64,000 nt of DNA, taken from Dehalococcoidia bacterium. GTDB taxonomy: Bacteria > Chloroflexota > Dehalococcoidia > Lucifugimonadales > JAGWBF01. Below the pieces are notes generated by a model. That model was not told the origin of the DNA. It did no database searches and saw only the letters and a list, made by a program, of their open reading frames with translations. The translations under genes were made by a program, and so were the position numbers. Shown here one piece after another: positions 16,352-53,039 of the stretch (its first letter is position 1; each line of letters starts with the position of its first letter). The stretch lies in assembly GCA_965207935.1 (NCBI GenBank), contig CBDBNM010000002.1, positions 77,692 through 141,691 of the forward strand. The letters are read 5' to 3'.

Positions 16352-16754
16352 TGGTGATTAGGCTACCCAAACATTGTAGTAAATATTGTGTGACAAACAC
16401 GTGACAAAACGACAATTTGTGTACCAATTGTGTGTCAATCTGGCGACCATAGCCGTTGTACAGCGTCTGAGGCTCGTGCCGGTCGGGGGGACAGGATGTG
16501 CTTGGCCCTTCACGGGCGCAGGGGATGTGTGCCCACTTTACGCGGCCGGGGAAAGTGTGCTGTTCATCAATGGGAACTTGGCGGGCCAAGGCATGCCGAT
16601 TTGCAAACTTCTCGGTGGGAGGTTCGAATATAGGATCGTGGTAGACTGAGCTGCTAGCAGGTGGTACAAAGTCCGGGCAGGTCATTTGGCCAGCGGGGGT
16701 ACGCCACCGTCACAAGATAGAATGGGCCAAATGAGTATGGAAAAGGAGGCACTT

Positions 16755-17330
16755 GTGTCTGAACCGGATAGTGGTGGGGGGTCCAAAACGATGGTAAAGC
16801 CCCATAGCGCGCGAAAAGGTCTGGTCATCGTGAATACCGGTGAGGGCAAGGGAAAGACGACAGCTGCCCTTGGCGTGATCTTTCGCGCTTGGGGCAGCGA
16901 CCTCAGAGTCAGGATGTTTCAGTTCATTAAGCACACATCCGCGAGGTTCGGTGAGCATAAGGCAGCTGAAAAACTGGACATCCAAATAGAGGCCTTGGGT
17001 GATGGTTGTACCAGGAATTCGAGCGATTTGGAAAAATCAATCTTACTGGCCAAAGAGCAGTGGATCCGCTGCAAGCACAATATACTTAACGGCAACGAAG
17101 AGATCGTCGTTCTGGACGAGTTCACTTACCCGATGCATTATGGGTGGGTCTCTGTCGCGGATGTCGTCGATACCCTAAGACGACGACCCGAAACGATGCA
17201 CGTCATCATCACGGGTCGATATGCTCCCCAGGAGTTGATTGACTGCGCAGACCTCGTTACTGAGATGAGGTCGATTAAGCATCCCTACCATGACCAGGGC
17301 ATCAAGGCTCAACTGGGAATAGAGCTTTAG
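16755..17330 (+). CDS. cobO: cob(I)yrinic acid a,c-diamide adenosyltransferase (CobO/BtuR family)
   Basis: Motifs GLVIVNTGEGKGKTTAALG, VVLDEFTY and a C-terminus KHPYHDQGIKAQLGIEL typical of BtuR/CobO. Start chosen at GTG 16755, 5 nt after AAGGAGG. The ORF track begins at 16686. Confidence 0.8.
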   Translation: MSEPDSGGGSKTMVKPHSARKGLVIVNTGEGKGKTTAALGVIFRAWGSDLRVRMFQFIKHTSARFGEHKAAEKLDIQIEALGDGCTRNSSDLEKSILLAKEQWIRCKHNILNGNEEIVVLDEFTYPMHYGWVSVADVVDTLRRRPETMHVIITGRYAPQELIDCADLVTEMRSIKHPYHDQGIKAQLGIEL

Positions 17331-18935
17331 TGGTGTCGCGGAGGGCCATCGGGGTAATCCAGTTGGTGGGCCGGACTGGACGAAATCAAGAACCGAGGCC
17401 GATTCCCTGGTCACGCCGTCGTTGGGCATGGGCACCGTGTACGTCAGCGTCGCCTCGTCTCCCTCCACCTCGATGGCCTCAACGAAGTTCCGGACGAGCG
17501 CCTTCTTCTCCGGTATCGTCCCCTTCTTCAGAAAGTCCCGGAAGTCCGCCACGTACCGCGCTATCTCCTTGGTGTCAGGAATGGAAACCCTGCGCTGCTC
17601 TAGCTGGGCCTCGGCGTCCTCCCTAGCAGCCTCAAGCTGCTCCTCACGGTGCCTCAGGGACATGATGCGGGGCGACAGGACCTCAAGGGTCAGGTCGCTG
17701 GTCTCAATGGCCTCGTAGAGCTTCCCCAGACGCTTCCTCACGTCACCAAGCTCCGCCTCCACAACCTCCAGCCTGCCGGACAGCTCTCCCGCCATGGCGT
17801 CGATCTCCTCCGCCACAAGCTGCACCAACTCGGTGATGGTCTCCTCGGTCAGTATCCTCTCCCTGATCTTCTCCACCACGAAGGTCTCCAGCTTCGGGGC
17901 GTTCAGGTAGCGGGCGCTGCACGTCCCCGCTCCTTCCCTGAACAACGTCCCGCAGATGTAGTAGGCGAACTGGCCGCTCTTGGCTCCCTGGGCCGAATAC
18001 GGCCTGCCGCACACCCCACACTTGAGCAGCCCGCTCAACAGATACGGGCTTCCCACCCTCGCGGGCCTCTGCACCTTGGGGGCGCGCTCGCTCATCGCCT
18101 GCTGCACGGCGTCGTAAAGCTCCTTCGACACCAGCGCGGGCCACGCTCCCTCCACCCTCACCGGGTCCTGGGCCTTCTCGTTCTTGCCCTTGACTCCCCA
18201 CACGGCGGTTCCGGTGTACGCCTCGTTGCGCAGCACGTAGTGGAGTCCGCCCTTGTACCACCGCTTGCCCCTGTTGGTGACTCCCCTCTCGTTCAACTCT
18301 TTGCACAGTTCTTTGAGGCCGTAGCCCTGTAGCGACTTCTCGAATATCTCCTTCACCACGGAAGCCGTGGCCGGGTCTACCTCCAGCGAGGGACGCTCCT
18401 TGGGTCCGTCCTGCACCTTGATCTTCCGGTAGCCGAAGGGGGCCTTGGAGCCCAGGAAGAAACCTCTCGAAGCGGCCTCCCGCATCCCCCGGACGACCTC
18501 TTGGGCCAAATTCTCGCTGTAATATTCGTCCACGCTCTCGATGATTCCCTCAAGCAGCCTGCCGGTGGCGCTGTCCTCGGCCTGCTCGGTGATGGACACC
18601 ACGCGGATGCCCTTGCGCCGCAGCTGGGCCTTGAAGGCCACGGCGTGCTCCCGCTTGCGGGTGAACCTACTGAATTTCCAGACTAAGATGACCTCAAAGG
18701 GCGCCTGGGGCTTGGAGCCCTCCTCGATCATCTTCCTGAACTGGGGCCGGTCGGCGACGCGGCCGCTCTCGGCCTCGTCGATGTACTCGCGGGCCACCGA
18801 GTAGCCGTTGGCCTTCGCGTACTCCTTGAGCGCCCTTAGCTGGGCCGCCACGGACAGGTCCACGTCCTGGCGGTCGCTGGACACCCTGGCGTAGAGGGCT
18901 GCCGGCGTCAGGGGCTGCAGGTGCTTCTTCTTCAT
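17175..18935 (-). CDS. large serine recombinase (resolvase/invertase N-domain, recombinase domain, zinc ribbon, coiled coil)
   Basis: 586 aa. Motifs: ALYARVSSDRQ catalytic Ser, RPQFRKMIEE, CGVCGRPY...YYICG zinc ribbon, and a long coiled-coil region. The last ~52 codons are antisense to the cobO 3' end and are probably not native. Confidence 0.9.
   Translation of the reverse strand: MKKKHLQPLTPAALYARVSSDRQDVDLSVAAQLRALKEYAKANGYSVAREYIDEAESGRVADRPQFRKMIEEGSKPQAPFEVILVWKFSRFTRKREHAVAFKAQLRRKGIRVVSITEQAEDSATGRLLEGIIESVDEYYSENLAQEVVRGMREAASRGFFLGSKAPFGYRKIKVQDGPKERPSLEVDPATASVVKEIFEKSLQGYGLKELCKELNERGVTNRGKRWYKGGLHYVLRNEAYTGTAVWGVKGKNEKAQDPVRVEGAWPALVSKELYDAVQQAMSERAPKVQRPARVGSPYLLSGLLKCGVCGRPYSAQGAKSGQFAYYICGTLFREGAGTCSARYLNAPKLETFVVEKIRERILTEETITELVQLVAEEIDAMAGELSGRLEVVEAELGDVRKRLGKLYEAIETSDLTLEVLSPRIMSLRHREEQLEAAREDAEAQLEQRRVSIPDTKEIARYVADFRDFLKKGTIPEKKALVRNFVEAIEVEGDEATLTYTVPMPNDGVTRESASVLDFVQSGPPTGLPRWPSATPLKLYSQLSLDALVMVGMLNRPHLSNEVCAVNQLLGSISTRDDDVHRFGSSS
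17363..17394. repeat. left junction (attL-like): tRNA-Ile 3'-end-like core TTGGTGGGCCGGA, 7 nt, then AAATCAAGAACC
   Basis: Direct sequence comparison with 35115-35148. Confidence 0.5.
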
Positions 18936-22585: not shown

Positions 22586-23014
22586 CTACTGGCTTGCCTC
22601 TGTTCGACGTGTCTCGACCTCCACTGACAAGAATCTTGGGGCGTTGAGGATTTTCGCACCCTGATGTTCCTGGAGGGGCAACAGATGCCGCCGATCACCG
22701 GTCACGAGGTAGTCGGCGGAAGCCTCCACAGCGCACTCCAGGATGCGGTTGTCCGCATGGCATCCCTCAATCACCTCCGGTAGCCGACGGGGGTAGATTA
22801 CTGTCCCGGCGTTCCCCAGCGCTCTGAGCACCTGGGACGAGCGTTACTCATCCCAACCGAACTTACGCCCTAGCACCCCGGCAGCTTCCTCCAAGATGAA
22901 GGTGGACAGGTAAAGCTCGAACCGACCCCTGAGTGCCAGTTCAAGCACAAGGCGTTCATTGCCAGGGAAGTTCAGGCCGGAGACGATGACGTTGGTGTCG
23001 AGGACGACCCTCAT
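22586..23014 (-). pseudogene. PIN-domain toxin (PIN_3-like) interrupted by an in-frame TAA
   Basis: The ATG at 23014 overlaps the antitoxin stop (ATGA). Translation gives MRVVLDTNVIVSGL...GRKFGWDE, then TAA at 22844-22846, then the same frame continues ...ILECAVEASADYLVTGDRRHLLPL. Confidence 0.7.
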
Positions 23015-23268
23015 GCACGGGCCGAGCCGATCTCGGCCCGGTACTCTTCCACCAGAGCGGCCACGTCTTCAGGCCCGATGCCCTTCGCCCTGGCCCGCTC
23101 CTCTCCGTACCGGAGAAGCTGTCTCCACTCCAACTCCTCGATGTAGCGCAGCAGCGCCTCACGAAGAAACTCGCTCCGGGACCGTCCCTGCTGCTTCATC
23201 ACCGCGTCCACCCGGTCGGCCATGTCCGGCGGCAGGGAGAAGGTAATGGTCTTGGTGGTTCGCGACAT
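23011..23268 (-). CDS. ribbon-helix-helix (CopG/MetJ-type) antitoxin
   Basis: 85 aa. KTITFSLPPDMADRVDAVMKQQGRSRSEFLREALLRYI is a typical RHH. It has a 4-nt overlap with the PIN gene. Confidence 0.75.
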   Translation of the reverse strand: MSRTTKTITFSLPPDMADRVDAVMKQQGRSRSEFLREALLRYIEELEWRQLLRYGEERARAKGIGPEDVAALVEEYRAEIGSARA

Positions 23269-23439
23269 GAATCACCTCTTGTTAGTCAGTCTTACCCAGA
23301 GTATGGCGCTATCTGCGGCTCACTGTCAATCGGTTCACGCACCAGACCGGCTTCCTGCGCAGACCCGCCTCACAGGGCGCGAGATTCGCAGGGTTGTCGA
23401 GGGGGTTGTACCCGTGTACAACAATCATGAGAAAGTAGA

Positions 23440-26400
23440 CGAGAAGCAGTCGGAGGGTATCGTAGCTGAAATCGGGGTGAATGGGGCATCCTGCTAAATC
23501 GCAGCGAGCAATCCGGTTCCGGGGTTCGCTCCACGGTCATGGGGCAGCCGCAGCTAGGAGATGGGGCAAGTGGAACATGGCGTTTGCGGAAGTTATGGGG
23601 CAGCGCCAGCTACGGAATGGGTCAAGTGGAACATTGATGCCGAAGAGAAGCAGAAGTCGTGGTCCTGAGCCGTTCAGTCCGCGTTCTCGCGCTTCGCAGG
23701 CGGCCTGGGGGCAGGCAGAGATTGAGACGCCTGATGCCGAAGGTGGGCGCGGGCGATCATTCGGGCCGGGATGCGCAGGCCGCGCCGCACCGTCTCCTGC
23801 TGCTCGACGGCGCACGCCTCAGCCCGGCGATCTGTCGATTGACTTCTCTCGTTGGCGCTTCTCATATTGCTCATCCCGCCGGCGTTTCATGGGCCGGGTG
23901 TGCGTTCCAGTCTGAGCGGTCGAGACGCCGGGCGTAACTGCCTGTACGACTAGTCACATGAGCGCCCATGTAGGGCCTCGGGCCAGCGAGCACTTCCGCG
24001 ATGCCGGTGGGCGGTACAGGGGATGGAAGTTGGTTGGAAAAATCCAAGTCGGGTCATTTCGTAGCTGATGCAGGGGCGAATCCGCCTCTACAGGCCGTAA
24101 CCAGTGAACAGTTCGACTTGCGGGTACGTTCCGGTCTGGAGTTGGATGCGCCGTAGCTAAGAGTTGCGTTTATGCAAGTGGCTGAGGTCGGGTCTGAGTT
24201 GGAAGGGCCATAGCTGGAAGTTGGAATTATGCGCGGCGAGGGAAAGGCCGCCGTCGGGATCGGTAAGCAGGCGAAGAAGGCTGCGGCGGGCGTCGTCCGG
24301 GATGTGGGGATGGTCGCCAGGCTGACACATGGGACGGTCGCACAGCCTGAATGTGTGGCCTACGGTTCCCGATTATTCGCTCGTGGCCTCGCACGTCGGG
24401 CTGGACGAGATAAGCGATGACAAGTCGTTCCTGCCCGTCACATCGAGCGGTGCGTGATGGACGCGCCAATGAAAGGGCGGATGGCGGAAACGTCGATAAC
24501 GGGGCCGGAGGGTTGTACAGAGAATCGGTCATTCGGACGGAGATGCGGAATGTACGCTGAGCGCGGTGGTGTAGGCGTTCGCACCACAACCTGGTCAATC
24601 GGAGGAAGCGATTGGTATGAAAGGGCCGGTCGCAGGGCCGTGTGCAGGCGCTGTAGCTGAGATGTGCATCGGTCGATGGCGGAGCGGTCATGGTCGTGCG
24701 CATTCTCCGTAGCTGGGATGTGCATGTTCTCGTGGAAGTCGAGCAGAATCCGGCGTTCGGGTTAGATACGAGGGCGAAGATGGCGGGCTGGCCGATTTGG
24801 GTGGCCTCATTGTGATACGTCAGCCCGTCGATATCGTCGAAGAGGTCGTCGAGGACATGGGCGACGAGGTCTCCGGGTTAATCAGCGGTCCCGCCGGTTT
24901 TGCAACGAAATGCACTTTTGGGAGCTGTTGGGGGCTGACACGGTAAGTGAGGGGAATGCCCTTTCGTCCCCTACAGGAAGTCCTGGGAACGGCTTCTGCG
25001 ACAATTTGGCAGCAAGTTGCGAGGGCTTCGTGTCGTCCGTTGGGTGACGATTCTGGGCAGGGCTGCGTAGCTATGAGTCGTAGCTGGTGGAGAGGGGGAC
25101 GAGAAAGCGTGCTGACAACCCCTGACCGGTGGGCTCTGCAACGGATTGTACTCGGATGGGCGGAATGGGAGATACGTGACCGATCGCGTCTGCAAGTTGT
25201 CCCAGCAAAGCTGCTGGGAGAGGCCCTATTGGAAGTGTCCGGAACGGAAAAGGCGGCCATGGTTGTACCTGATGCATCAGGGCCAGGGGCCTTCTGTCGA
25301 GGGCAGTGTGGCGGTAGCATCCATGCGTCACCCATGACGCCATGTTCGGCAGGAGCATCGACGTTGGTGGTGATGATGGGCACGTCGCCCTCCCCGTCGG
25401 CGATGTCGAGGAAGGCGGTCTCGCTGGCGGGAGACTCGAAGACGAATAGCACGTGGGGCAGATGTCCCTTCGTTGTCCCGTTAAGTGTAGGCGCTGCTTG
25501 ATGGTCATAACCCCTCGCATGGCGCTGTCACATGTGTCACCCGTTATGGCGTGCGGGGTTCTGGGGATCGCCGACGGTGCCGAACCCGTGTACAGAGATT
25601 TGGAGTTGGTGGTCAAAGTGTCATCGGGTCGTGGGCAAGCTGATTGGGAGGAGAAGGCCGCCTACAGGATCATTGCGGGAAGCACTTTGATTCCGGAGTT
25701 CCTTCCACGGTCATGGGGCAGTCGCAGCTAGGGAATGGGGAAAGTGGAACATGGCGGTTGGCCGGGATTGTGGGGCATTGCCAGCTACGAAATGGGGAAA
25801 CTGGAACATGGACGCGAAGACGGCTCGGAACGAGCAACGGACACGGGACACGAGGGTGTCGGTGGTGATGCGTAGAACGCGGCGACGGCGTCCTGGTTAT
25901 TCACGATCATCAGCCTGAGCACGCGATGCGGGACGCTGTGCGTGATCTCGCGGGCCACGTGTTGGGAGAGGCCGAGCGTCAAGGACGGCAGGACGGCGTC
26001 AGGCTCATCTACGACGTGAGAGCGTGACCGGGCGGACGCCAGGGACGACATCGTGGAGAAAGCTGGCGTTCACGACGCCGGCGGTGCCCCCGTGATGAAC
26101 ATGGCGGGAGCAAGCGATGGGGAGTCGAGCCCAGGGGCAACGTCTCTAGCCAGAAATTCACCGTGCCGTCGATCATGGGCTGATGCGTCAGACTACAATC
26201 GCCCAGGGGCGGTCTTCGGCCTGGGAGGGCTGTAAGGGGGATCGGAGTTAGTCGCAGAATACAATCTGGGTGATATTCGTAGCTGAATGAAGGGGAATCG
26301 GGGCGAAGCGAAGGGAATCCAGCGAGCAGTTTTACTGCGGCTCTATCGCAACTATATTGCACTGATTGTATTGTAGGAATTGTACTTTCTGAGGCATGAC

Positions 26401-26730
26401 GACCCAAGCGGTGGGCCATGATGAGCCTGTCGATGGACGAAGCGGCGGGTTTCCGGCGACGGCGTGAAGCCCCCTATTGGACAGCCCCTACCGGACCCTG
26501 GCGGACGCTCTGGTGGATGATTGAGGCAAGGTGTCTGCTGCTGCCGAGGCTCTGATGGGGTGAACTACCGTACGATCGCCGCAAGCTGTGAAACCGGGCG
26601 GGAGACGCGCCGGACGATGAAGGGGGTTTGGGGCAAAGAGAGTGCTGTAGAGGACTGATATTCGGCTGGTAGCTTCAGTGCGAGATGGTGAGATGGCCGC
26701 CTTCCCCGTGGGAGCCATCGGCATGTTCTT
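23440..26730. repeat. ORF-poor tract of about 5-6 degenerate tandem modules (~0.5-0.65 kb) carrying a recurring GTAGCTG / CAGCTA(G/C)G..ATGGGG..GTGGAACAT motif set
   Basis: TAGCT/AGCTA-centred motifs occur at 23463, 23552, 23608, 24062, 24154, 24211, 24654, 24710, 25068, 25081, 25726, 25783, 26280 and 26670. Four motif pairs are spaced 56-57 nt apart. Segments 23526-23640 and 25700-25815 align over ~110 nt. Confidence 0.6.
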
Positions 26731-29700
26731 CTAGCTACGCGCCAACCCATCTGGCCCCACTACGAGTTCCCAGGCCACCAGTTCCAAGTCCTCGACCGAT
26801 GGTTTCCTGGTCTCAGGTCGTGCGATAGGGCGGTCAAGTCCTTCGGCTTGGACAGCCCCTCGGAGCGCAGTCAGCGCCTGAACCACTTGCCCTTGTTCTG
26901 CACGAGTTGGCGCAAGCCGGTTTATGACTCTCACCGGGTCTCGCATTACCACGCGCCTGGTCGCGTCCGATGGTAACGGCATTTCAACCCACTCGTTGAA
27001 GAAGCTGAATAGGTCGGGGTGAGATTGCAATAGGTCGTCACGATTGAGGAACTGTCTAATGCGTCTCGTGAAACTGTCGGATGTAACTGCGGATATGGCG
27101 TCCAAGTATGCTTGGCCGATCTGGTCCACGGCGGCTTTCAGAGGCTCCTTTAGGTGTTTGAATGGGTTTTCGTTAGGCGGTATCTCGAAGCGGTGCTCAT
27201 CTCTGCCGGCCTCCACAATGGATAGGACATCACTTGGCGATGTCAGGGGTTGCGCCACGTTGCCCAGTGGATAGAAGCGCCAGAACACTTCGCCCGACGC
27301 CTCTTCGGGCATTTTCAGCATGACGTAGACACCGTTCGCCATGCCCTTCTTCACACTGTAAACCCCGTTGGGAATGTCCCGTACGTCCTCGGTAGCGAAC
27401 TCCTTCATCATGTCCAGATACCTGTTCAGCAACTCCGCGCCCGCGTCCAGTCCCTGGCTTCGCTCGCCCTCTCGGTACACGTGGTCCGCCTGGACTCCGC
27501 CGGCTCGCAGCTGCATCACCTTGTCCAGTTCCTTCGCCTCAATCTGCTCACCGAGCACCGAGGCGTCCAAAGCGACCGCCTCCTCTATGGTCTCAATCTT
27601 CCTTGTCAGGTTCTGAACCAGATTCAGTAGGTCTTCTAGGCCGTGCTCAGGCATCAGGTTGTAGATGTACACCTTGTCGTGGGGAGAAAACAGGCGGTCG
27701 ATGCGACCAGCCCGTTGGATCATCCTCACCGGGTTCCAGGGCAGGTCGTAGTTGACCAGGAACTGGGCATCCTGGAGGTTCTGGCCCTCCGAGAGTACGT
27801 CTGTGGCTATCAACAATTCGATGCCCTGCGCTCTCAGAGGCTCTATCTTCCTAAGAAGGGCGGGATCATCCAGAGGTTCGGTCTCGCGATGTGCTGCCAA
27901 GGGCGCGAACCGCTCAAGCACCGAACGCCTCCGATTCCGGTCATCTCCGCCGGTTAGCAGGGACATCCACCGTGCATCCTTCAGATTGCTCTGAACGCGG
28001 ACAGTGCTCTTCAATGAGTCCACATCTCCGCCGAACTGCTTAAACAGGTGTTGGGCGGTGTCCTTGTAGGTCGTAAACAGGGCTACCTTGGTGGGTTGCC
28101 CTTGGTCATCCTCTTTTGGCAGTCCTTCGAGCAGCTTGCGCACAGCCTGGGCCTTGGGGTCGCCCTGCTCGGCCAGCATCTCCTCCAGCCACTGAAGCCG
28201 AGTGAGAAGCGTCTGAAGCCTGTCCCGGTCGAACTCCACATCTGCCTGCAACCGCCCTCGAAGGTCCACGTCCTCCGGCGCAACAAGTTCCTGTTGCAAT
28301 GCCGCCACTGCCTTGGGGTCCATGTCCTCTAGGTCCTGGTCGTGGTCGGGCAACGAACCCCCCAGCACACCCCGCAGCTTGTATGCCTGCTTGGGGGTCA
28401 GGACATGTCCCTGATCCAGCCTCGCAAGGAAAAGGTTGAGATAGTCTACTAGACTTCTCACCGTGGACGTGAGCGCGGCCAGGGAACTCTCCATGCGCTT
28501 CAAGAGGATGGTGCGCATGATGCCGACGAAGTTGGCGTTGCGTTGCTTCAGTTGTGCGCTGGTCTCCTTCTCACCAGTCTCAACGCCGTACTCGTCCAGG
28601 CGGTAGACGGCGAAGTTGAGGTGCTCAATGGCGTCGATGATGTCGTGGTAGATGTTTCCATACAGGCCTTGCAGACTGTAGTCCACCGCCTTCGGTATCT
28701 CGTGTTCCGGGAAGCGCAGCGGCTGCCCATTGACCTCCATCGTCTCTCCTGCATCCTGCATGGACCGGATGTCGTGACGGGTTCGGCGTACGAGGGACAG
28801 CATCATAGTGTCCAGTAGGCCGGAGTCGGACTCCCCCTTCTCAATGGCCTGGAACGCCGTTTTGAGGTTGGGTATTGGCCCTCGCCCTGCGTACCAGGTG
28901 TCGTCTCCCCTCGTGATGAGCATGAGCTGGTGATACATATCCCAGACGGAGTTGTTGATGGGCGTGGCTGTCATCAGCACCACCCTGGTGTCCGGTTTGC
29001 CCCCTCGGATGATCTCCATAAGGGCGCGGTAGCGCTTCGTCCTTGGGTTGCGGAAGTTGTGGGACTCGTCCACCAGGATGACGTCGTACTGGTCCTGGTA
29101 ACGCTTCAACTCGGCCCGGAGCCGCTGCCGTTGAACGGGTGACGGCTCCTCGTCGATGTCCACGAGGCTGGGAAGCGACTCCATTGTGACCGTGGTGGCG
29201 ATGATTCCCCACTCTGCGAACCTGTCGGTGCTCCAGTTGTCCTGAAGCTGGGCGGGGCAGACGATCAACGCCCGCGTGGAGGTTCTCGCTCGCTGCGGGT
29301 CATCGCTCCGCTGGTTGGCGAATTCCCTCAGGATGCCCAAGCCTTCGTAGGTCTTGCCTAAGCCCACCGAGTCGCACAGCATGGCCCCCCAGTGGCGTCT
29401 CAGCAATGCTACGCAGCGTTGGACGGCCTGCTGCTGGAATCCGGCCAGCCTCCCCATGACTTCTTCCGACAGCCCCATCTCCAGGAACCGGCCGTAGGCG
29501 GCATGTAGTGACTTGAGCATGACCTGCCACGGGGTGTAGCGCCTCCCGAACAGGACACACTCTTCTAGGCGCTGGACGAACTGTGCCTTGCAGTCCTGGC
29601 CAAGCTCCCACTTCTCGTCGAACCAGCCTTCCAATTGCACCGTCAGGTCATGGTCGTAAGAGGTCAGGTTCAACTCGGAGTTCTCGGATAGGCCGCTCTT

Positions 29701-30303
29701 GGTTAGGTTGCTGGAGCCGACGGCGGCATATCGTCCCATCTCGCCGGAGAACAGGTACGCCTTGGCGTGAAGTCGATTCCTCGGCGAGCGGTGGTCCAGC
29801 ACCTGTTCGGGCAGCACCTTTCCTCTATCGGACCCGAGGAATCGCCTGACCTCCACCCCGTCCTTTCTCAGGAAGTCGGCCAGCGTAGTGACCCGCTCCC
29901 ATGCGGACAGGTCGAAGGCTGCCGCCTCCGGCGTCACTCCGCGTGCCAGAAGCTCCCGCCGTTCCTCGTGAGTCAGCAGCAGCCACGGGTAGCCGCCTTC
30001 GAGGAAGGTGTACCAGTCCACGGACTCCTCTGGGCCTCGAAGCTCGTCGCGGTCGCCGGGTTGGGACAGTACGTCTCCCGGCCCACGCCGATTCATGAAG
30101 GGCCGTTCTCCCAGCAACAGCCGCACTCTGGCGGCTCCCTCCATGCCATGCTTCAGGTCTAGGAATCCATCGGGTGTCAGGTATGCCGTTGCGATGCGAA
30201 TGTCCTGAGGGATGACGCGAGCCAGCGCACCGAATAGATGCTCCCGCATGAAGCCTGTTGTCGGCTCGTTGGCAACTGGAAGGACGTCTGTCTCATTGGT
30301 CAT
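26731..30303 (-). CDS. PLD-family (HKD) nuclease domain fused to an SNF2-family helicase
   Basis: 1190 aa. N-terminal motifs: IRIATAYLTPDGF...RLHAKAYLF...VGSSNLTKSG (HxK...GSxN). Then SNF2 motifs: DSVGLGKTYEG, ILVDESHNFRN, LMTATPINNS, ATDVLSEGQNLQD and WNPVRMIQRAGRIDR. Confidence 0.9.
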   Translation of the reverse strand: MTNETDVLPVANEPTTGFMREHLFGALARVIPQDIRIATAYLTPDGFLDLKHGMEGAARVRLLLGERPFMNRRGPGDVLSQPGDRDELRGPEESVDWYTFLEGGYPWLLLTHEERRELLARGVTPEAAAFDLSAWERVTTLADFLRKDGVEVRRFLGSDRGKVLPEQVLDHRSPRNRLHAKAYLFSGEMGRYAAVGSSNLTKSGLSENSELNLTSYDHDLTVQLEGWFDEKWELGQDCKAQFVQRLEECVLFGRRYTPWQVMLKSLHAAYGRFLEMGLSEEVMGRLAGFQQQAVQRCVALLRRHWGAMLCDSVGLGKTYEGLGILREFANQRSDDPQRARTSTRALIVCPAQLQDNWSTDRFAEWGIIATTVTMESLPSLVDIDEEPSPVQRQRLRAELKRYQDQYDVILVDESHNFRNPRTKRYRALMEIIRGGKPDTRVVLMTATPINNSVWDMYHQLMLITRGDDTWYAGRGPIPNLKTAFQAIEKGESDSGLLDTMMLSLVRRTRHDIRSMQDAGETMEVNGQPLRFPEHEIPKAVDYSLQGLYGNIYHDIIDAIEHLNFAVYRLDEYGVETGEKETSAQLKQRNANFVGIMRTILLKRMESSLAALTSTVRSLVDYLNLFLARLDQGHVLTPKQAYKLRGVLGGSLPDHDQDLEDMDPKAVAALQQELVAPEDVDLRGRLQADVEFDRDRLQTLLTRLQWLEEMLAEQGDPKAQAVRKLLEGLPKEDDQGQPTKVALFTTYKDTAQHLFKQFGGDVDSLKSTVRVQSNLKDARWMSLLTGGDDRNRRRSVLERFAPLAAHRETEPLDDPALLRKIEPLRAQGIELLIATDVLSEGQNLQDAQFLVNYDLPWNPVRMIQRAGRIDRLFSPHDKVYIYNLMPEHGLEDLLNLVQNLTRKIETIEEAVALDASVLGEQIEAKELDKVMQLRAGGVQADHVYREGERSQGLDAGAELLNRYLDMMKEFATEDVRDIPNGVYSVKKGMANGVYVMLKMPEEASGEVFWRFYPLGNVAQPLTSPSDVLSIVEAGRDEHRFEIPPNENPFKHLKEPLKAAVDQIGQAYLDAISAVTSDSFTRRIRQFLNRDDLLQSHPDLFSFFNEWVEMPLPSDATRRVVMRDPVRVINRLAPTRAEQGQVVQALTALRGAVQAEGLDRPIARPETRKPSVEDLELVAWELVVGPDGLARS

Positions 30304-30331
30304 AGTGGAGGAGTCTATGTTTACCTCGGAG

Positions 30332-30724
30332 CTACACTGAAACGATGCTCAGCCCCCGCATCCGCTCGAAATGCTGCGTGTTGTTGGTGAGCAGCGTCAG
30401 GTTGTTGCTTATCGCTGTGGCGCCTATCAGGATGTCCATATCTCCTATGAGATTCCCTTCTTCTCGCAGCCTGGCCCTTTCCGCGCCGAAGACCCGGCAG
30501 GCTTCATCGTCCAGCGGAACCACATTCACCGCTTCCAGGAACAGGCGCAGCGCCTCGGAGTCGGAATAAGGATTTCGGGATCGGGCCAGACCCTCGTAGA
30601 GTTCGGCCAAGGAAATTATGCTCATGCCGACTCCATCGGGCAGGAGTGCCTCCAACCGCCTGGCCGTTCTATCGGCCCTGTGCAGGTAGTCGATTGCCCA
30701 GTCTGTGTCCACGAGATACTCCAT
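30332..30724 (-). CDS. vapC: VapC-type PIN-domain toxin, with no separate antitoxin gene upstream
   Basis: 130 aa with YLVDTDWAIDYL, SLAELYEG, IGDMDILIGATAISNNLTLLTNN and HFERM. It starts 11 nt after the methyltransferase stop codon. Confidence 0.85.
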   Translation of the reverse strand: MEYLVDTDWAIDYLHRADRTARRLEALLPDGVGMSIISLAELYEGLARSRNPYSDSEALRLFLEAVNVVPLDDEACRVFGAERARLREEGNLIGDMDILIGATAISNNLTLLTNNTQHFERMRGLSIVSV

Positions 30725-30735
30725 GACGTTGGTTG

Positions 30736-33700
30736 CTAGAGCCTTGGTACGGGCCGCGTGCGGATGTCTCGGCTGGCGCGGATGTCTCTAATCAGTTCAT
30801 CCCCGTCAACACTCCATTTCCATGCACCGGCGGAGGCTTTCAAGGTGTTTAGTTTCCTCCAGTCCGACGGCATATCGGCACCCAACGCCTCGCGGCGTTC
30901 CCCAAGCCAATCGAGCATCAGTTTCCGTTCAGAAGCAGACAAGTCATACACATGAAAAACGATGGAGTCAATCTCCCGTTCGATACCCTCCAATTCTTCA
31001 GGCGAATTCTCAAAGCCAACTATTTCGTTTCCAAGCCGCTCGAGTTCAGCTTGGGCTTCGGTGCCGGGGGTTACGATAGGAGTTGGCTCGATGTAGCCAA
31101 TCTTGAACTCCTGAAACGAACCCCCGCGTGCAACCGTCAGCTTTGGGTAAAGGAAGTTGAGCACCGAAGAATTCATCATTGGCAACAGCCAACGCACTGG
31201 CTCAACTAGGAAGTTGGCAGGAGCGGAAATATACGCTTGGGATGTGTCTCTGGCAAATTTACTCTCTACTGCGAGGTTCCCCCACACAACTTTGGGGTGT
31301 TCGAACTCATGATAGAGACCCTCCTGCGGCTGTTGAAGCTCGTACCACGGGTGTAAATGTGCCGTAGCCCGCTCCTCAAGGTCGCTGCGAAACCACCTCA
31401 GATGGTCTCTGATGGCAGGATACTGATCTACGTCTACCCCACGACTCGTGAAGATGATGTAGAGTCCCGGTGAATGTGCCTTCCACCGCTTGATGTCCCG
31501 TCCGCGTAGCCACGGCTTGATGAGCTCCGCGCTTCGCGGGTCGTCCTCAATCAGTTCGTCACGCTTGTCCTGGTCTATGACGAACGCCTCGTTCAGACCT
31601 GTCTTGACGCCGTAGTACATGCGCCTATTGACGAACTCACCCAACGGAGTGCCCAGATTCATCAGCCGCTCGAAGAGGCGTATCAGGGCAGGATCTTCCA
31701 GAATCCAGCCATCCTTCTTCAGCATGACTTGGGGGAAATCGCCAATTGCGACCCTTGCGAGCAGCCCATCCAAGTCCTCCAACATGCCTCGCACCCTCTC
31801 GGTGTTGATTCTAAAGTCAGCTTCGGAGAGTTCCTTCCTAACGGGGGCGGATAGGTCGGCGACGGTCAGTGCGTGTCCCGCCATGTCATCTGCCCGGCGA
31901 CCCACTAACACAGCCGGGTACGCCGCGATAGCTTTGCCATTAGCTTCGAACAGAGGTAGATCGCCGAAATCGATTACGCTCTTTATGCGTAGTGAATTGG
32001 GCAAGTGTCCGCGGGTCCCCGCTCCATAGCCAGCCCGCATGTATTTGTTGCTGGTAATGAAGGCCAGCCAACCGCCGGGTCGAAGTAGTTGTAAGGCACG
32101 CGCGTAGAAGTAAACGAGGAGGTCCGCCCGTGAAGCGGCCACCTCCGGGAATGCCTCTCCATAGAAGAGTTCGTCCTCGTTGTCGATTCTCTCCATACGC
32201 ACATAGGGCGGGTTGGCAAGAACGATGTCGAAACCTGCCTCGGGATCGCCCTGTTGCAGGACATTGGGGAAGGCAACCGGCCACAGGAAGGGCTTCTGCA
32301 CTAGCGCGAAGTCCGTTGACTCCACTCCATCTCGAAGGGAGCGAATGCGCTCCATGAATCGGTCGGCTCTCCTCAGCGCGGCCTTACTGGGCTTCTCGGC
32401 TTTTCGTAGAGCCGCCCGCTTCTCCTCGGCCTTCCCCAGCGCATCTGTTAGGTGCAGAAGGATTATCTCCCGCTGGTCGCGGGCGATCAGGTCTCGCAAT
32501 TCACGGAGACGGGTCGGGTTTCTGTGTGTCCTCTCGAACTCCCTCCGCCGTTGGTCGATGTTGCGCTCCAATCTCTGGAGGCGGCTCTGGAGTTCCATGT
32601 CCAGTTGTATGCTTTTGGGCGCGGGCCAAGACTCCTTGAAGGTCACGCCCGCCACCCCGTCTACCAGCGAGTCGCCAGCCAGAATCTGAAAGTCCAGGTT
32701 GGGCAGTGCCCAATCGGAGTTCGGTTCAGGCGGCTCATCCATGTCCAACACCATAGAGAGCCAGAGGCGCAAGCGGCATATCTCAACGGCCTCAGGATTG
32801 ATGTCCACTCCGTAGAGGCTGCTCTCTATGATGCGCCGCTTCCATTCGCTCACTGTCCGGTAGAACTCGTTAGGCTCGACGTGGTTGCGCTGAGAGAAGA
32901 GAATCCCGCGACGCAGGGTCACCATCTCTTGGATGGTTCCTAGTAGGAACGCCCCTGAGCCGACGGCCGGATCGCAAACTCGCACCGTTTCCATCGCGTC
33001 GATGAGCGCATTAGCTGGGAAGTCTGGCAGAGGCTGATGCTCGTCCCTGGAACCAACGGCCTCTTGGCGCAGGGCCTCCAGGGTAGAATTTTCAACGCCG
33101 GTGGCATCACGCAAGTATCCGTCCAGGGCCTCCCGACACATGAAGTGGACAATCTCACGAGGGGTGTAGTAAGTGCCGGTGTCGTGACGCTCATCCCCCT
33201 GGTAGAGGTTCTCAAAGACCCGGCCTAGTAGCTCAGGATCTGGGTCAACGGATTGGTCGTCCGGCGTTGACTCTCTGGTGGTGAACCGATAGCGAGAAAG
33301 CAGGCCGAGGAGGGTTCGCTGCTGGCCTTCTTCACTATCGGCATCGGGGTCGAACACTTCGTCCGGCAGGGACACCTGCCCCGCGTCGTCGATGCGATCC
33401 TCCAGCGCGTTCCGACGGAACAGGCCACCATTTAGGTAGGGGACGTATCCCAGGACTGGGTGTTCGCTCCTACTGCTGCTCCCCGTCGCCATCGCATCGA
33501 AGAACATCGGGGTCAGGATGCCGCGATAGTATTCGCCCTCTTGCGTCTCTGCCCGTTTGTCCCAAAGATTCAGCAAGTAAGTCGGCGAACCCATCCCTCC
33601 GGGTGCTCCCAGCCAACGCTTGGCCTGAAGGAACCAGAGAAAGAGCACCCGGCCCATCTGTCGGGTGGCCCAGGCGCGGGCCTCCTCCTCGCCGAGAGAA

Positions 33701-34374
33701 GTGATTACGGGATGCTCCGGGTTGTGGGCTAGGAGCGCCTTGGCTATACGGTCCCGGACGGCGGCATACTCCTGGTAGAACCTGGTGGTTACGCGCTCAA
33801 CGCTGAATTGTTCTTGCCACAGTCTCGACACTTCCAAGAGGCTCGCCTCGTGCGGGATGCGCAAACCGCGCAGCAGATCTCGATGGAACCGAGTCGGCTT
33901 GTCCAAGTCGAGGTGGGCACGGACGCTGGTCACAGACCCGTTGGAAGCCCTAATCTGCGTGCGGGGAAAGACCAACTCAGCCTCGCGTCGCGAGTCGTTG
34001 GATGGAGGAACCAACAAGGCTAAGGCCCGCCTGTCAGGTACATGTTCTACCAGAGCGCGGGTGATGCGCCTTCGCGACCGATCCCTATCTGACGATTTGT
34101 AACCCCAGTCCGAGAGTACGCCGATCCACAGTCCAGCTTCCGCCGGTTCTGCCTTGCAACTCCCTACCCGATAGAGTTCGCTTACCCCGAAGCCTCCGTC
34201 GCCTCGGCCACGCAGAAACTGTTTGAGTCCGCCAGAAAGAGCACCAGCCAATCGGTCCTCTGGGCTCGGGACTGGGTCGAAACCCAAGAACGCGGCCAAG
34301 CTCCCCGCCCTCTGGGGATCGCCGCCGAAGTCCTGAAGGATACTGGCTACGTTACCGTCAGCGCCTAAAGTCAT
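30736..34374 (-). CDS. large N6-adenine DNA methyltransferase (Eco57I / type IIG / BREX PglX-like gamma class) with extra N- and C-terminal regions
   Basis: 1212 aa. Motif I is VCDPAVGSGAFLLG and motif IV is VLANPPYVRME. A TaqI-C-like region follows. The usual family C-terminus (VYDLSASERKLM) is followed by ~50 additional residues. Confidence 0.9.
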   Translation of the reverse strand: MTLGADGNVASILQDFGGDPQRAGSLAAFLGFDPVPSPEDRLAGALSGGLKQFLRGRGDGGFGVSELYRVGSCKAEPAEAGLWIGVLSDWGYKSSDRDRSRRRITRALVEHVPDRRALALLVPPSNDSRREAELVFPRTQIRASNGSVTSVRAHLDLDKPTRFHRDLLRGLRIPHEASLLEVSRLWQEQFSVERVTTRFYQEYAAVRDRIAKALLAHNPEHPVITSLGEEEARAWATRQMGRVLFLWFLQAKRWLGAPGGMGSPTYLLNLWDKRAETQEGEYYRGILTPMFFDAMATGSSSRSEHPVLGYVPYLNGGLFRRNALEDRIDDAGQVSLPDEVFDPDADSEEGQQRTLLGLLSRYRFTTRESTPDDQSVDPDPELLGRVFENLYQGDERHDTGTYYTPREIVHFMCREALDGYLRDATGVENSTLEALRQEAVGSRDEHQPLPDFPANALIDAMETVRVCDPAVGSGAFLLGTIQEMVTLRRGILFSQRNHVEPNEFYRTVSEWKRRIIESSLYGVDINPEAVEICRLRLWLSMVLDMDEPPEPNSDWALPNLDFQILAGDSLVDGVAGVTFKESWPAPKSIQLDMELQSRLQRLERNIDQRRREFERTHRNPTRLRELRDLIARDQREIILLHLTDALGKAEEKRAALRKAEKPSKAALRRADRFMERIRSLRDGVESTDFALVQKPFLWPVAFPNVLQQGDPEAGFDIVLANPPYVRMERIDNEDELFYGEAFPEVAASRADLLVYFYARALQLLRPGGWLAFITSNKYMRAGYGAGTRGHLPNSLRIKSVIDFGDLPLFEANGKAIAAYPAVLVGRRADDMAGHALTVADLSAPVRKELSEADFRINTERVRGMLEDLDGLLARVAIGDFPQVMLKKDGWILEDPALIRLFERLMNLGTPLGEFVNRRMYYGVKTGLNEAFVIDQDKRDELIEDDPRSAELIKPWLRGRDIKRWKAHSPGLYIIFTSRGVDVDQYPAIRDHLRWFRSDLEERATAHLHPWYELQQPQEGLYHEFEHPKVVWGNLAVESKFARDTSQAYISAPANFLVEPVRWLLPMMNSSVLNFLYPKLTVARGGSFQEFKIGYIEPTPIVTPGTEAQAELERLGNEIVGFENSPEELEGIEREIDSIVFHVYDLSASERKLMLDWLGERREALGADMPSDWRKLNTLKASAGAWKWSVDGDELIRDIRASRDIRTRPVPRL

Positions 34375-35114: not shown

Positions 35115-35148
35115 GGTTCTTGATTTTATCAAGCTTGGTGGGCCCGGA
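35115..35148. repeat. right junction (attR-like): GGTTCTTGATTT, 8 nt, then TTGGTGGGCCCGGA (the 3' end of tRNA-Ile)
   Basis: GGTTCTTGATTT is the exact reverse complement of 17383-17394. The core overlaps the tRNA acceptor/CCA end. Confidence 0.5.
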
Positions 35149-53025: not shown

Positions 53026-53039
53026 TATGTAACCTCGCT

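What the first reader, a model, noticed from the sequence alone, without database searches (positions are those of the whole stretch)
23440..26730. 3.4-kb ORF-poor tract built from degenerate tandem modules with a fixed-spacing motif pair
Only short ORFs with poor (Arg/Pro/Ser/Gly-rich) composition lie between the RHH gene and the PLD-SNF2 gene.

The tract contains about 14 copies of a TAGCT/AGCTA-centred motif. The consensus is roughly CGTAGCTG(A/G)(A/G)ATGGGG, and longer versions read GGGGCAG-CGCAGCTAGGNGATGGGGNAAGTGGAACATGG.

The motifs are arranged as repeating sets:
- An A-type copy is followed ~90 nt later by a B/C pair.
- The B/C spacing is 56-57 nt in four separate modules: 23552/23608, 24154/24211, 24654/24710 and 25726/25783.
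- Module starts recur every ~500-640 nt: 23463, 24062, ~24560, 25068, ~25636 and 26280.
- Two modules (23526-23640 and 25700-25815) still align over ~110 nt. The others are much more diverged.

All copies have the same orientation. It is not a CRISPR array, because there are no uniform short repeats or spacers. It shows no attC-like R''/R' cores.

Possible explanations are a decayed cassette array, tandem structured-RNA genes, or an iteron/centromere-like protein-binding field belonging to the island.
Basis: seen in the sequence. Interest (0 to 1): 0.7.

Follow-up and report, generated by a model that had tools for sequence, protein, structure and literature searches.

The report
Relic array of mobile-element DNA modules
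The gene-poor tract is a real, same-orientation array of six to eight diverged ~250-nt non-coding modules that belong to a family of integrative elements in Dehalococcoidia. They are most likely protein-binding DNA, left behind and reshuffled after this copy of the element lost its helicase and replication genes, and what the modules do is still unproven.

Summary
Window 23.3-26.7 kb carries 6-8 diverged modules, all in one orientation and G-rich on the + strand.

Each full module reads:
- GTACAG;
- about 48 nt later, site A (GTAGCTGA..GGGG);
- CCTACAGGA;
- sites B and C, 56-57 nt apart.

Each B/C site has an AGCT core flanked by the same 8-nt word at a strict 22-nt offset. The word differs between module classes.

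Homologous modules and arrays occur in related Dehalococcoidia MAGs. There they fill the gene-free gap between a UvrD/helicase-IV-like helicase (with HTH_17 and Replic_Relax genes) and either an RHH-PIN pair plus serine recombinase or AlpA plus tyrosine integrase.

- The window has lost the helicase block; only a 52-aa Replic_Relax fragment remains.
- One module is a chimera of two classes.
- The PIN gene carries a stop codon.
- One spacer holds a real 66-aa gene.

I found no support for RNA structure, coding, CRISPR or attC. B/C sites are more conserved than fourfold-degenerate sites.

Best reading: cis-acting protein-binding modules, iteron/operator-like, here a recombined relic. The binding protein and the process served are inferred, not shown.

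The parts
22586..23014 (-). PIN (vapC-like) gene with an in-frame stop at 22844-22846. Flanking element gene, probably a pseudogene.
   Evidence: Pfam PIN_3 on the C-terminal ORF. The intact PIN of L024 aligns over 130 aa at 85% identity across the stop.
23011..23268 (-). RHH (vapB/CopG-like) gene that borders the tract. A sigma-70-like promoter lies at 23329->23300.
   Evidence: Pfam RHH_1, E 9e-11. Promoter scan gives TTGACA-18-CATACT. 82% aa identity to the L024 RHH.
23405..23641 (+). Module M1.
- Palindrome TTGTACCCGTGTACAA: 23406-23421.
- Site A, GTAGCTG: 23462-23468.
- Site B: core 23552-23555, with ATGGGGCA at 23539-23546 and 23561-23568.
- Site C: core 23608-23611, with ATGGGGCA at 23595-23602 and ATGGGTCA at 23617-23624.
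   Evidence: Orthologous to L024 9186-8941: the block 22626-23641 is 79% identical. B..C is 0.79 identical against 0.63 at fourfold sites.
23666..23990 (-). Spacer unit S1, carrying a conserved 66-aa gene at 23674-23874(-). Its core reads ETxRRGLRIxARMIARAHLRRQ. The window copy has Pro where all homologues have Leu or Ile.
   Evidence: 26 homologues at 56-76% identity. Alignment. 76% identical at DNA level to L020 8783-8569, and also present in L033. The AF2 model is all-helical, pLDDT 77.
23993..24235 (+). Module M2.
- GTACAG: 24014.
- Palindrome TTGGAAAAATCCAA: 24034-24047.
- Site A: 24061.
- CTACAGG: 24088.
- Site B: core 24155.
- Site C: core 24212, with AGTTGGAA at 24197-24204 and 24219-24226.
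   Evidence: Its A region resembles that of M6 (74%). Translations of M2-type modules from other genomes turn up as P0147 and P0152.
24458..24822 (+). Module M3.
- GTACAG: 24515.
- Degenerate site A, GTACGCTGA: 24553.
- Site B: core 24655.
- Site C: core 24711.
- Half-site word: TGTGCA.
   Evidence: 72% identical to L024 8731-8368. Repeats D5 and D9. Half-sites listed.
24889..24995 (+). Partial module: A-like AGCTG at 24923 and CCCCTACAGGAAGTCCTGGGAACGG at 24968-24992. This is the sequence that follows the stop of the Replic_Relax gene in L005.
   Evidence: Read directly against L005 18262-18232.
25040..25230 (+). Degenerate module debris: two A-type cores (25067, 25080), GTACT at 25148 and AGCTGC at 25209.
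25312..25467 (-). Pseudogene fragment: the C-terminal 52 aa of a Replic_Relax (PF13814) protein.
   Evidence: tblastx and tblastn give 44% identity to residues 610-661 of the 683-aa L005 protein, E 1e-8 to 1e-9. Pfam on the intact relatives.
25509..25816 (+). Module M5, a chimera.
- Left part, 25509-25706: helicase-proximal class. It holds the operator-like TGTCAC repeats at 25515-25550, GTACAG at 25590, site A at 25637 and CTACAGG at 25662.
- Right part, 25671-25815: M1 class. B core at 25726, C core at 25783.
   Evidence: blastn matches the left part to L024 8288-8090, L019 and L016, and the right part to L024 9080-8936 at 83%. M1 and M5 align over 263 nt.
26189..26390 (+). Module M6, lacking B and C.
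- GTAAG: 26232.
- AATACAAT: 26258.
- Site A: 26279.
- AT-rich block ATATTGCACTGATTGTATTGTAGGAATTGTAC: 26354-26385.
   Evidence: Matches L004 16982-16926 and 16818-16784. Inverted repeat I5. This is the only stretch of the tract at or below 40% GC.
26390..26730 (+). Terminal debris up to the PLD-SNF2 stop codon. It has weak A-like and C-like echoes at 26617-26641, 26669 and 26698-26729.
   Evidence: Repeats D5 and D12. No match in any relative.
26731..30303 (-). PLD-SNF2 gene. It is a flank and not functionally tied to the tract.
   Evidence: Pfam. Seventeen relatives carry the gene at about 90% identity with different DNA downstream of it.

Best explanation
**What it is.** The tract is the non-coding module region of an integrative mobile element found in Dehalococcoidia.

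In intact relatives the gene order is: Replic_Relax nuclease, a ~155-aa protein, an HTH_17 protein, a UvrD/helicase-IV-like helicase, then one to three modules. After the modules comes either RHH-PIN and a large serine recombinase, or AlpA and a tyrosine integrase.

**How a module is built.** Each module is a DNA-level unit of about 250 nt with three AGCT-centred sites. Site A lies in a short TTC..GAA dyad. Sites B and C each carry the same 8-10-nt half-site on both sides of the AGCT core, 22 bp apart (two helical turns). In three of the four word classes (M2, L016/L019/L024-type and L020b/L004b-type) the right-hand copy is extended into a palindrome, and a further copy of the word lies upstream of A. 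In M1 and M5 there is no palindrome, and M1's extra copy follows A instead. B and C lie 56-57 bp apart.

**How it probably works (inferred).** The modules are cooperative binding platforms for element-encoded winged-helix or HTH proteins. They would serve the element's replication or transfer start, or its control, in the way iterons plus an operator do in plasmids and satellites.

**What happened in this window (partly shown).**
- The element has lost the helicase/Replic_Relax block.
- The modules have been multiplied and shuffled by recombination between modules.
- The array is therefore most likely an orphaned, decaying relic. M1, next to the RHH gene, is still well preserved.
For: **Membership in an element family.**
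- L024 has the same order (serine recombinase, 208 aa, PIN, RHH, M1-type, M3-type, helicase-proximal module, helicase). Window 22626-23641 and 24458-24822 are 79% and 72% identical to it.
- L020 has the M1 homologue, the S1 spacer (76%) and a further module next to the helicase.
- The helicase-proximal module directly follows the helicase stop in L016, L019, L024 and L032. L020 keeps only a degenerate A-like remnant there, and L023 only the A/CCTACAGG part.
- The recombinase type differs between elements, so the modules are not recombinase sites.

**DNA-level function.**
- Substitutions show no codon phase: 26/25/19 for M1 versus M5, and 10/9/10, 9/7/11 and 13/16/13 for the helicase-proximal set, with stops in every frame.
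- Among L016, L019 and L024, B..C is 0.81-0.95 identical and the stretch from C to the helicase stop is 0.90-0.91. Fourfold sites are 0.74-0.82.
- Between the window and L024, M1 B..C is 0.79 identical against 0.63 at fourfold sites.
- The 22-nt phasing holds in 21 sites of four word classes.

**Decay in the window.**
- Only a Replic_Relax fragment is left, and there is no trace of the helicase, the ~155-aa gene or HTH_17 anywhere in the window.
- M5 is chimeric.
- PIN carries a stop codon.
- The 66-aa gene has a Leu/Ile to Pro change in its invariant helix.
Against: - No binding protein is identified.
- One intact element (L024) carries three modules with three different half-site words. Either three specificities are needed, or only one module per element is active.
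- Features of classical iteron origins are missing. No stretch of the L024 array is at or below 40% GC, DnaA boxes are not enriched, and there are only two phased half-sites per site.
- The helicase is an SF1 UvrD/helicase-IV type, not a known initiator.
- Helicase homologues at 74-81% identity have no module.
- L033 has a helicase 86% identical to the L016 helicase, with the Replic_Relax-type 570-aa, 160-aa and 144-aa genes upstream, and the module profile finds no module in it. So the module does not always accompany even the closest element-borne helicases.
- The A region evolves faster than fourfold sites (0.55-0.75).
- The strong G skew is not explained by protein binding.
- All comparative data come from about ten MAG contigs.
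Confidence: 0.5

Rival explanations
1. **Transcription-control units between the element's operons.** Read in the sense of the genes, B and C would be weak tandem terminators or insulators (palindrome, then a pyrimidine run). A, the GTAC dyad and the TGTCAC inverted repeat would be operators and promoter for the next gene (RHH-PIN, AlpA or the 66-aa gene). The C-rich sense RNA would favour Rho-dependent termination.
For: - Modules always sit between co-directional genes, and a gene usually follows each module: RHH-PIN, DUF3800, the 66-aa gene, or the 82-aa HTH protein and AlpA.
- In the helicase-proximal class, B and C read as TTCCG-N4-CGGAA followed by CTTTT in the gene sense.
- Operator-like palindromes are specific to each module.
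- The sense strand is C-rich and predicted to be unstructured.
Against: - L024 has three modules in a row with no gene between them.
- M1-type B/C sites have no hairpin or T run, and the terminator scan finds nothing at any B/C site of the window.
- The second half-site, 22 nt away, has no role in a terminator.
- Stems of 5 bp are too weak for intrinsic termination.
Confidence: 0.2
2. **Recombination sites of a cassette system.** Modules would be integron-like but unrelated to attC. They would mark cassette borders, and an element enzyme would exchange units at the AGCT cores, building same-orientation arrays.
For: - Units are present or absent at module borders. Homology between the window and L024 ends right after C1 (23641) and resumes 57 nt before the GTACAG of M3.
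- A DUF3800 gene is inserted exactly at the GTACAG edge of the M1-type module in L020.
- The modules share an architecture but vary in sequence and all point the same way.
- M5 is a chimera.
Against: - No recombinase co-varies with the modules: elements carry serine or tyrosine enzymes, or neither is nearby.
- The repeats are direct, not the inverted imperfect palindromes of attC.
- The M5 junction lies in a segment conserved between classes, so ordinary homologous recombination would explain it.
- Break points are not at the AGCT cores.
Confidence: 0.12
3. **Neutral debris.** The modules would be duplicated leftovers of one ancestral intergenic region with no present function anywhere. The 22-nt and 56-nt repeats would be fossil slippage duplications.
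For: - The window copy is clearly decaying.
- A regions diverge faster than fourfold sites.
- Many modules lack B/C (M6 and the partial ones).
- M1-type right half-sites look like a local 9-nt duplication when compared with L020 and L004.
Against: - B/C sites and the helicase-proximal 130 nt are more conserved than fourfold sites.
- The four copies of the half-site in a module stay alike while the word changes between classes. Eight-nt repeats cannot be homogenised by gene conversion, so this points to selection.
- The array position is conserved in L020 and L024.
Confidence: 0.1
4. **Tandem non-coding RNA genes or long G-rich transcripts.** A G-rich + strand RNA might, for example, form R-loops that prime or regulate replication.
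For: - GC skew of +0.20 is shared by the window and L024 arrays.
- All copies have one orientation.
- There is strong conservation 3' of the helicase.
Against: - No Rfam match, even at E<=10.
- Fold z-scores are +0.49 and +0.44.
- RNAalifold finds 0 consensus pairs over 7 modules.
- Only 2 compensatory pairs appear in the three close helicase-proximal sequences.
- No promoter or terminator brackets the modules.
Confidence: 0.08

Closest known systems
Replication origins of SaPI/PICI satellites (iterons just downstream of the rep helicase gene)
   Same: - The cis-site lies immediately 3' of an element-encoded helicase gene.
- It consists of short repeats whose sequence is specific to the element or module.
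- The element is integrative, with int and alpA-type genes.

SaPI features are taken from PMC9371898.
   Different: - SaPI Rep is a hexameric self-loading initiator helicase with a C-terminal winged helix. Here the helicase is SF1 UvrD/helicase-IV-like.
- SaPI iterons are 5-6 nt and flank an AT-rich centre. Here the half-sites are 8-10 nt and flank AGCT at 22 bp, and there is no AT-rich centre.
Iteron-type plasmid origins (RK2, F, R6K, pPS10)
   Same: - Direct repeats phased by whole helical turns; cooperative binding depends on phasing (PMC4980987).
- The same word is used both in direct repeats and in an inverted-repeat operator (my own knowledge of RepA and RepE systems).
- Neighbouring proteins carry two winged-helix domains (Replic_Relax).
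   Different: - There are only two phased copies per site.
- An invariant AGCT lies between the copies.
- No DnaA boxes and no AT-rich unwinding element.
- No Rep_3-type gene.
- Several word classes occur within one element.
clt loci of Streptomyces conjugative plasmids (8-bp direct repeats read by TraB)
   Same: - Plasmid-specific 8-bp words in direct orientation within a non-coding cis-acting locus (PMC4447253).
- G-rich, polar words.
   Different: No FtsK/TraB-like translocase was seen in any locus.
Integron cassette arrays and CALINs
   Same: Same-orientation arrays of units of about 0.5 kb, with small genes and toxin-antitoxin genes nearby. The border elements are conserved in architecture rather than in sequence.
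   Different: - No attC-type inverted R''/L''-L'/R' structure; all repeats are direct.
- No IntI.
- The border element is about 250 nt with three sites.
Accessory sites of serine resolvases (res site II of Sin/beta type, with direct-repeat half-sites)
   Same: Half-sites in direct repeat around a centre, and several sub-sites at fixed distances (my own knowledge, not checked in a paper here).
   Different: Modules occur equally in elements with a tyrosine integrase and no serine recombinase (L016, L019, L032). The word also varies between modules of a single element.

Membership tests
CRISPR array | Uniform short repeats (about 25-40 nt) alternating with unique spacers of similar length | tested here: not met
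   TRF finds only two trivial 2-copy repeats. The direct-repeat families are 60-80% identical and irregularly spaced.
Integron cassette array / CALIN | attC sites: imperfect inverted repeats (R''-L''...L'-R') at each cassette end | tested here: not met
   All significant self-matches are direct. The inverted pairs are short, far apart and at chance level.
Integron cassette array / CALIN | IntI-type tyrosine recombinase with attI at one end (for a complete integron) | tested here: not met
   The window has a large serine recombinase at 17175-18935 and no Phage_integrase gene among the neighbours tested.
Known structured RNA family (Rfam 15) | Match to a covariance model | tested here: not met
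   No hit in the tract at the gathering threshold or at E<=10. Only chance-level hits on the L024 array.
Structured RNA in general | Folding more stable than shuffled sequences, and a conserved structure with covariation | tested here: not met
   z-scores of +0.49 and +0.44. RNAalifold finds 0 pairs over 7 modules.
Iteron-type theta origin | Array of direct repeats phased by whole helical turns | tested here: inconclusive
   The 22-nt phasing is strict. But only 8-10 nt of each 22 repeats, with two copies per site and four per module.
Iteron-type theta origin | Adjacent AT-rich unwinding element and DnaA boxes | tested here: not met
   No 40-nt stretch at or below 40% GC in the L024 array, and only one in the window (26349-26388). 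DnaA-box matches are not enriched.
Iteron-type theta origin | Cognate initiator gene next to the repeats | tested here: inconclusive
   Relatives have the helicase and a Replic_Relax protein with two winged helices nearby. None is a known initiator family, and the window has lost them.
SaPI/PICI-type ori | Repeats immediately downstream of the element's rep helicase gene | tested here: met
   A module starts about 100-130 nt after the helicase stop in L016, L019, L024 and L032. This does not hold in the window, which has no helicase.
SaPI/PICI-type ori | Self-loading hexameric initiator helicase with a winged-helix C-terminal domain, and an AT-rich centre in the ori | tested here: not met
   The helicase is UvrD/helicase-IV-like with Zn ribbons. 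There is no AT-rich centre.
Streptomyces clt locus | FtsK-like TraB translocase encoded by the element | tested here: not met
   No FtsK/TraB domain appears in any gene table or Pfam scan of the loci.
Pseudogene graveyard | Most of the tract shows protein-level similarity to intact genes elsewhere | tested here: not met
   - Only 25312-25467 (Replic_Relax) and the intact 66-aa gene have protein-level matches.
- Pfam finds nothing on 10 tract ORFs.
- The 88-aa ORF has no homologue.
- 56% of the tract has no match in any relative.
tRNA-derived att-site repeats from tandem integration | Copies of the 3' end of the target tRNA gene | tested here: not met
   The 3' end of tRNA-Ile occurs once in the window, allowing up to 3 mismatches.

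The most novel reading that the evidence does not exclude
The modules are a new kind of programmable cis-site. An invariant AGCT core, possibly a nick or entry point for the PD-(D/E)XK Replic_Relax nuclease and helicase pair, is flanked by co-varying half-sites two helical turns apart. These half-sites set which element-encoded specificity factor acts there. Chromosomal arrays of orphan modules of several specificities, sitting in a defence island, would then act as decoys or incompatibility determinants that titrate the replication or transfer proteins of incoming related elements.
Probability: 0.07. Interest if true: 0.8.

Novelty: new variant of a known kind. Interest (0 to 1): 0.45.

Why it matters
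- **A new element family.** The work defines a recurrent, previously undescribed non-coding building block of integrative elements in Dehalococcoidia. This group is hard to culture and to manipulate genetically. It also names the genes that travel with the block: a UvrD-like helicase, HTH_17, a ~155-aa protein and Replic_Relax.
- **A candidate replicon.** If the modules are origins or control regions, the helicase-proximal module together with these genes is a candidate minimal replicon for genetic tools.
- **A natural specificity series.** The strict 22-bp phased half-sites co-vary around a fixed AGCT. This gives a natural series for studying how DNA-binding specificity and its sites change together.
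- **A genome-scanning lesson.** A striking ORF-poor repeat field next to defence genes can be the stranded cis-DNA of a decayed mobile element rather than part of the defence system.

Tried and rejected
- **Rfam.** Searched the window at the gathering threshold and the tract at E<=10: nothing in the tract. The L024 array gave only chance-level hits.
- **RNA folding.** Both strands of M1 and RNAalifold over 7 modules gave no signal. The fold of three helicase-proximal sequences was uninformative.
- **Coding tests.**
  - Pfam on 10 tract ORFs found nothing.
  - Codon-phase tests were flat.
  - Modules seemed to encode a C-terminal peptide ('..VLPxxxL*'). I rejected this because frames are broken and substitutions show no phase.
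- **Link to the PLD-SNF2/methylase system.** Rejected: 17 relatives share the gene at about 90% identity but not the tract.
- **tRNA-derived att repeats.** None found.
- **Promoter and terminator scan.** Only the RHH promoter and two irrelevant hairpins.
- **DnaA boxes and AT-rich unwinding element.** Absent.
- **Pattern scans of public collections.**
  - One metagenome hit, which is a chance match in a coding region.
  - Viral contigs gave nothing or chance hits.
- **Other spacer ORFs.**
  - The 88-aa ORF at 25785-26051 has no homologue.
  - The best hit of the 57-aa ORF at 24157-24330 is a translation of an M2-type module in another genome, not evidence of a gene.
- **Structure of the 66-aa protein.** The model is all-helical and gives no DNA-binding fold to tie it to the sites.
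- **PHROGs and NCBIfam.** They give no function for the ~155-aa, 377-aa, 208-aa, 679-aa or Replic_Relax proteins.
- **Site at 16649.** The X-AGCT-X-like site near the recombinase is judged a chance match.


Full report

Yes.
- The tract between the RHH gene (23011-23268, -) and the PLD-SNF2 gene (26731-30303, -) holds 14 of the window's 60 YAGCTR motifs and 9 of its 30 GTAGCT motifs, in 5% of its length.
AGCT pairs at that spacing number 4 of 19 inside the tract and 5 of 254 outside.
- Every significant self-match of the tract is direct. M1 and M5 align over 263 nt (68% identity, E 3e-36), B aligns with C inside each module, and the DNA between modules is unrelated.
- Tandem Repeats Finder sees no regular array.
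- The + strand is G-rich throughout, with skew +0.20 against about 0 in the flanks.

**2. Anatomy**

A full module reads, on the + strand:
- GTACAG, in M1 as the dyad TTGTACCCGTGTACAA;
- 40-61 nt later, site A ((T)CGTAGCTGA, then a G run);
- 26-27 nt after the A-site AGCT, in M2 and M5 and in the L016 module, the ACAGG of CCTACAGGA..GGAAGCACTT..TTCC (M1 has GGCATCCTGCTAA there instead);
- site B;
- 56-57 nt later, site C.

A new feature is that each B/C site has the same 8-nt word on both sides of AGCT, exactly 22 nt apart. The words are ATGGGGCA in M1 and M5, AGTTGGAA in M2 and TGTGCA in M3.
- In the tract, 9 of 19 AGCT sites have at least 6/8 matches at that offset, against 8 of 254 elsewhere.
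- Over 21 sites from five genomes the offset spectrum has a single peak at 22 nt (6.5 of 8 matches, against 2-4 at other offsets).
- In several classes the right-hand word is extended into a palindrome: TTCCG-N4-CGGAA, GTGCAAGTTGCAC, GTGGACAAATTGTCAC and TTGGAAAAATCCAA. A further copy of the word or palindrome lies about 25-35 nt upstream of site A.

**3. Not RNA, not coding**
- Rfam finds nothing.
- M1 folds no better than shuffled sequence on either strand (z +0.49 and +0.44).
- RNAalifold over seven modules predicts no pair.
- Ten tract ORFs have no Pfam match.
- Differences between M1 and M5 fall evenly on the three codon phases (26/25/19).
- Among four helicase-proximal modules the phases are also flat, and every frame is broken in at least one sequence.

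**4. Where the tract comes from**

The PLD-SNF2 gene has relatives of about 90% identity in 17 Dehalococcoidia/Chloroflexota MAGs, but the DNA downstream of it differs in each. So the tract does not belong to that gene. The organism assignment is inferred from these relatives.

Diverged modules do occur in some of these loci (L004, L016). In L016 a module directly follows a UvrD/helicase-IV-like helicase gene. Fetching contigs that encode close homologues of that helicase gave intact elements.
- **L024** has Replic_Relax, a 153-aa protein, HTH_17, the helicase, then 1.45 kb without genes holding three modules, then RHH, PIN, 377-aa and 208-aa proteins and a serine recombinase. Window 22626-23641 (PIN, RHH and M1) is 79% identical to it, and window 24458-24822 (M3) is 72% identical.
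- **L020** has the same frame, with an M1 homologue, the S1 spacer (76% identical) and a further module.
- **L016, L019 and L032** have one module between the helicase and AlpA plus a tyrosine integrase.
- **L023** keeps only the A/CCTACAGG part, abutting the helicase stop.
- More distant helicases (74-81% identity) have no module.
- **L033** is an exception among the close relatives. Its helicase is 86% identical and the same 570-aa, 160-aa and 144-aa genes lie upstream. Yet it has no module detectable with the profile, only the S1 unit.

The modules therefore travel with the Replic_Relax/HTH_17/helicase block in most of the intact copies seen. They do so whichever recombinase the element uses, which argues against their being recombinase sites.

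**5. Are modules constrained?**
- Among L016, L019 and L024, fourfold-degenerate sites of the helicase are 0.74-0.82 identical. The 130 nt from site C to the helicase stop are 0.90-0.91 identical, and B..C is 0.81-0.95. The GTACAG-to-A part is only 0.58-0.75.
- Between the window and L024, fourfold sites of RHH, PIN and the recombinase give 151/238 = 0.63. M1 B..C gives 88/111 = 0.79, and the A part 0.55, with islands of identity at the GTAC dyad and at site A itself.
- So B/C and a few short islands are under purifying selection and the rest drifts.
- Within a module the four copies of the half-site stay alike, while the word differs between homologous module classes. That pattern points to a shared partner, a protein or less likely a nucleic acid, that reads the word. 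This step is inference.

**6. State of the window copy**
- No trace of the helicase, the ~155-aa gene or HTH_17 exists anywhere in the 64 kb.
- A 52-aa C-terminal piece of a Replic_Relax gene survives at 25312-25467(-). It is preceded at 24968-24992 by the sequence that follows that gene's stop in L005.
- M5 is a chimera. Its left 200 nt are of the helicase-proximal class and its right 145 nt are of the M1 class. The junction lies in the segment conserved between classes, as expected from recombination between modules.
- PIN has an in-frame stop.
- 56% of the tract has no match in any relative.
- One spacer is not junk. 23674-23874(-) encodes a 66-aa protein with 26 homologues (56-76% identity) and an invariant core ETxRRGLRIxARMIARAHLRRQ. 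The window copy has Pro at a position that is Leu or Ile in all the others. The model is all-helical and gives no hint of function.

**7. Mechanism**

*Shown:*
- The modules are conserved DNA-level units of an integrative-element family.
- B/C sites carry phased, co-varying half-sites around AGCT.
- Arrays of one to three modules lie 3' of the helicase.
- The window array is rearranged and orphaned.

*Inferred:* the modules are cooperative binding platforms for element-encoded winged-helix or HTH proteins and serve the start or control of element replication or transfer. Three known systems work in a similar way.
- In SaPI satellites, Rep-specific iterons lie immediately downstream of the rep helicase gene (PMC9371898).
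- In iteron plasmids, binding is cooperative and depends on helical phasing, and the initiator has two winged helices (PMC4980987).
- In Streptomyces, clt loci carry plasmid-specific 8-bp direct repeats (PMC4447253).

The tract does not qualify as a member of any of these.
- There is no AT-rich centre and there are no DnaA boxes.
- The helicase is SF1 and not a known initiator.
- No TraB-like gene is present.
- One element carries three different words.

*Rivals:* transcription-control units (terminator/insulator plus operator), a cassette-type recombination system, neutral debris, and G-rich RNA or R-loops. Each is weighed in its own entry. The strong G skew, shared by the L024 array, remains unexplained by any of them.

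**8. Novelty and verdict**

I found no paper describing these modules. The paper searches I ran covered Replic_Relax and the analogous systems, and no paper search targeted the modules themselves. No Rfam, Pfam, PHROG or NCBIfam entry matches the modules. The closest concepts (iterons, operators, clt) are well known, so I rate this a new variant of a known kind, of moderate interest.

Noticed in passing
window 22586-23014 (-): The PIN (vapC-like) gene paired with the RHH gene has an in-frame stop at 22844-22846. The intact L024 orthologue aligns across it at 85% identity. The gene is therefore probably a pseudogene, or the stop is a sequencing error.
   Followed up: partly
window 23674-23874 (-): A conserved 66-aa gene lies inside the 'ORF-poor' tract. 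It has 26 homologues in Dehalococcoidia-type contigs, an invariant helix ETxRRGLRIxARMIARAHLRRQ and an acidic tail. Its function is unknown. The window copy has a Leu/Ile to Pro change.
   Followed up: yes
window 16686-17330 (+) and 17175-18935 (-): The 3' end of the large serine recombinase gene overlaps the end of a CobO/BtuR-like ORF by about 155 nt. This looks like the point where the element inserted into that gene.
   Followed up: no
window 26731-35212; L001-L017 downstream of 13560: An HTH_17 gene, an Eco57I-like methylase and the PLD-SNF2 gene sit next to tRNA-Ile (35136-35212). The PLD-SNF2 gene is about 90% conserved in 17 MAGs. The cargo downstream varies: CBASS (patatin + SMODS) in L005 and L016, TIR in L032, and a type I-E-like CRISPR array in L005 from about 18960. 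This is a defence-cargo hot spot.
   Followed up: partly
window 10052-16351 (-): A 2099-aa ORF has GTAGCT recurring every 603-621 nt (10892, 11513, 12119, 12722, 13325). It is a repeat-domain protein, unrelated to the tract, and it inflates the motif counts for the whole window.
   Followed up: no
window 7490-7548 (-): Rfam calls a partial tRNA (36.6 bits) that ARAGORN does not call. It may be a tRNA remnant marking an old integration border.
   Followed up: no
window 16360-16440: An AT-rich patch with repeated TTGTGT/GACAA words (TTGTGTGACAAACACGTGACAAAACGACAATTTGTGTACCAATTGTGTGTCAA) lies upstream of the cobO-like ORF. It has no Rfam match.
   Followed up: no
L016 21807-21935; L019 7860-7985; L024 7857-7980; L032 8863-8990: The 130 nt between the helicase stop and site C are 90-91% identical in L016, L019 and L024, well above fourfold sites at 74-82%; the L032 stretch was only read by eye. 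They contain CGAGACAC twice, 53 nt apart, and a CTCGT-N-ACGAG dyad. This is a second conserved non-coding element that is absent from the window.
   Followed up: partly
L024 5001-7856 and homologues P0001-P0120: The element's helicase belongs to a very abundant UvrD/helicase-IV-like family in these MAGs. It has a nuclease-like insert (PHROG Holliday-junction-resolvase and HNH hits at aa 370-430) and C-terminal Zn ribbons. Chromosomal copies lack the modules.
   Followed up: partly
window 53067-53301 (-): A T-box leader (107 bits) lies upstream of the 597-aa ORF at 51304-53097. It is ordinary and fits a Chloroflexota origin.
   Followed up: no
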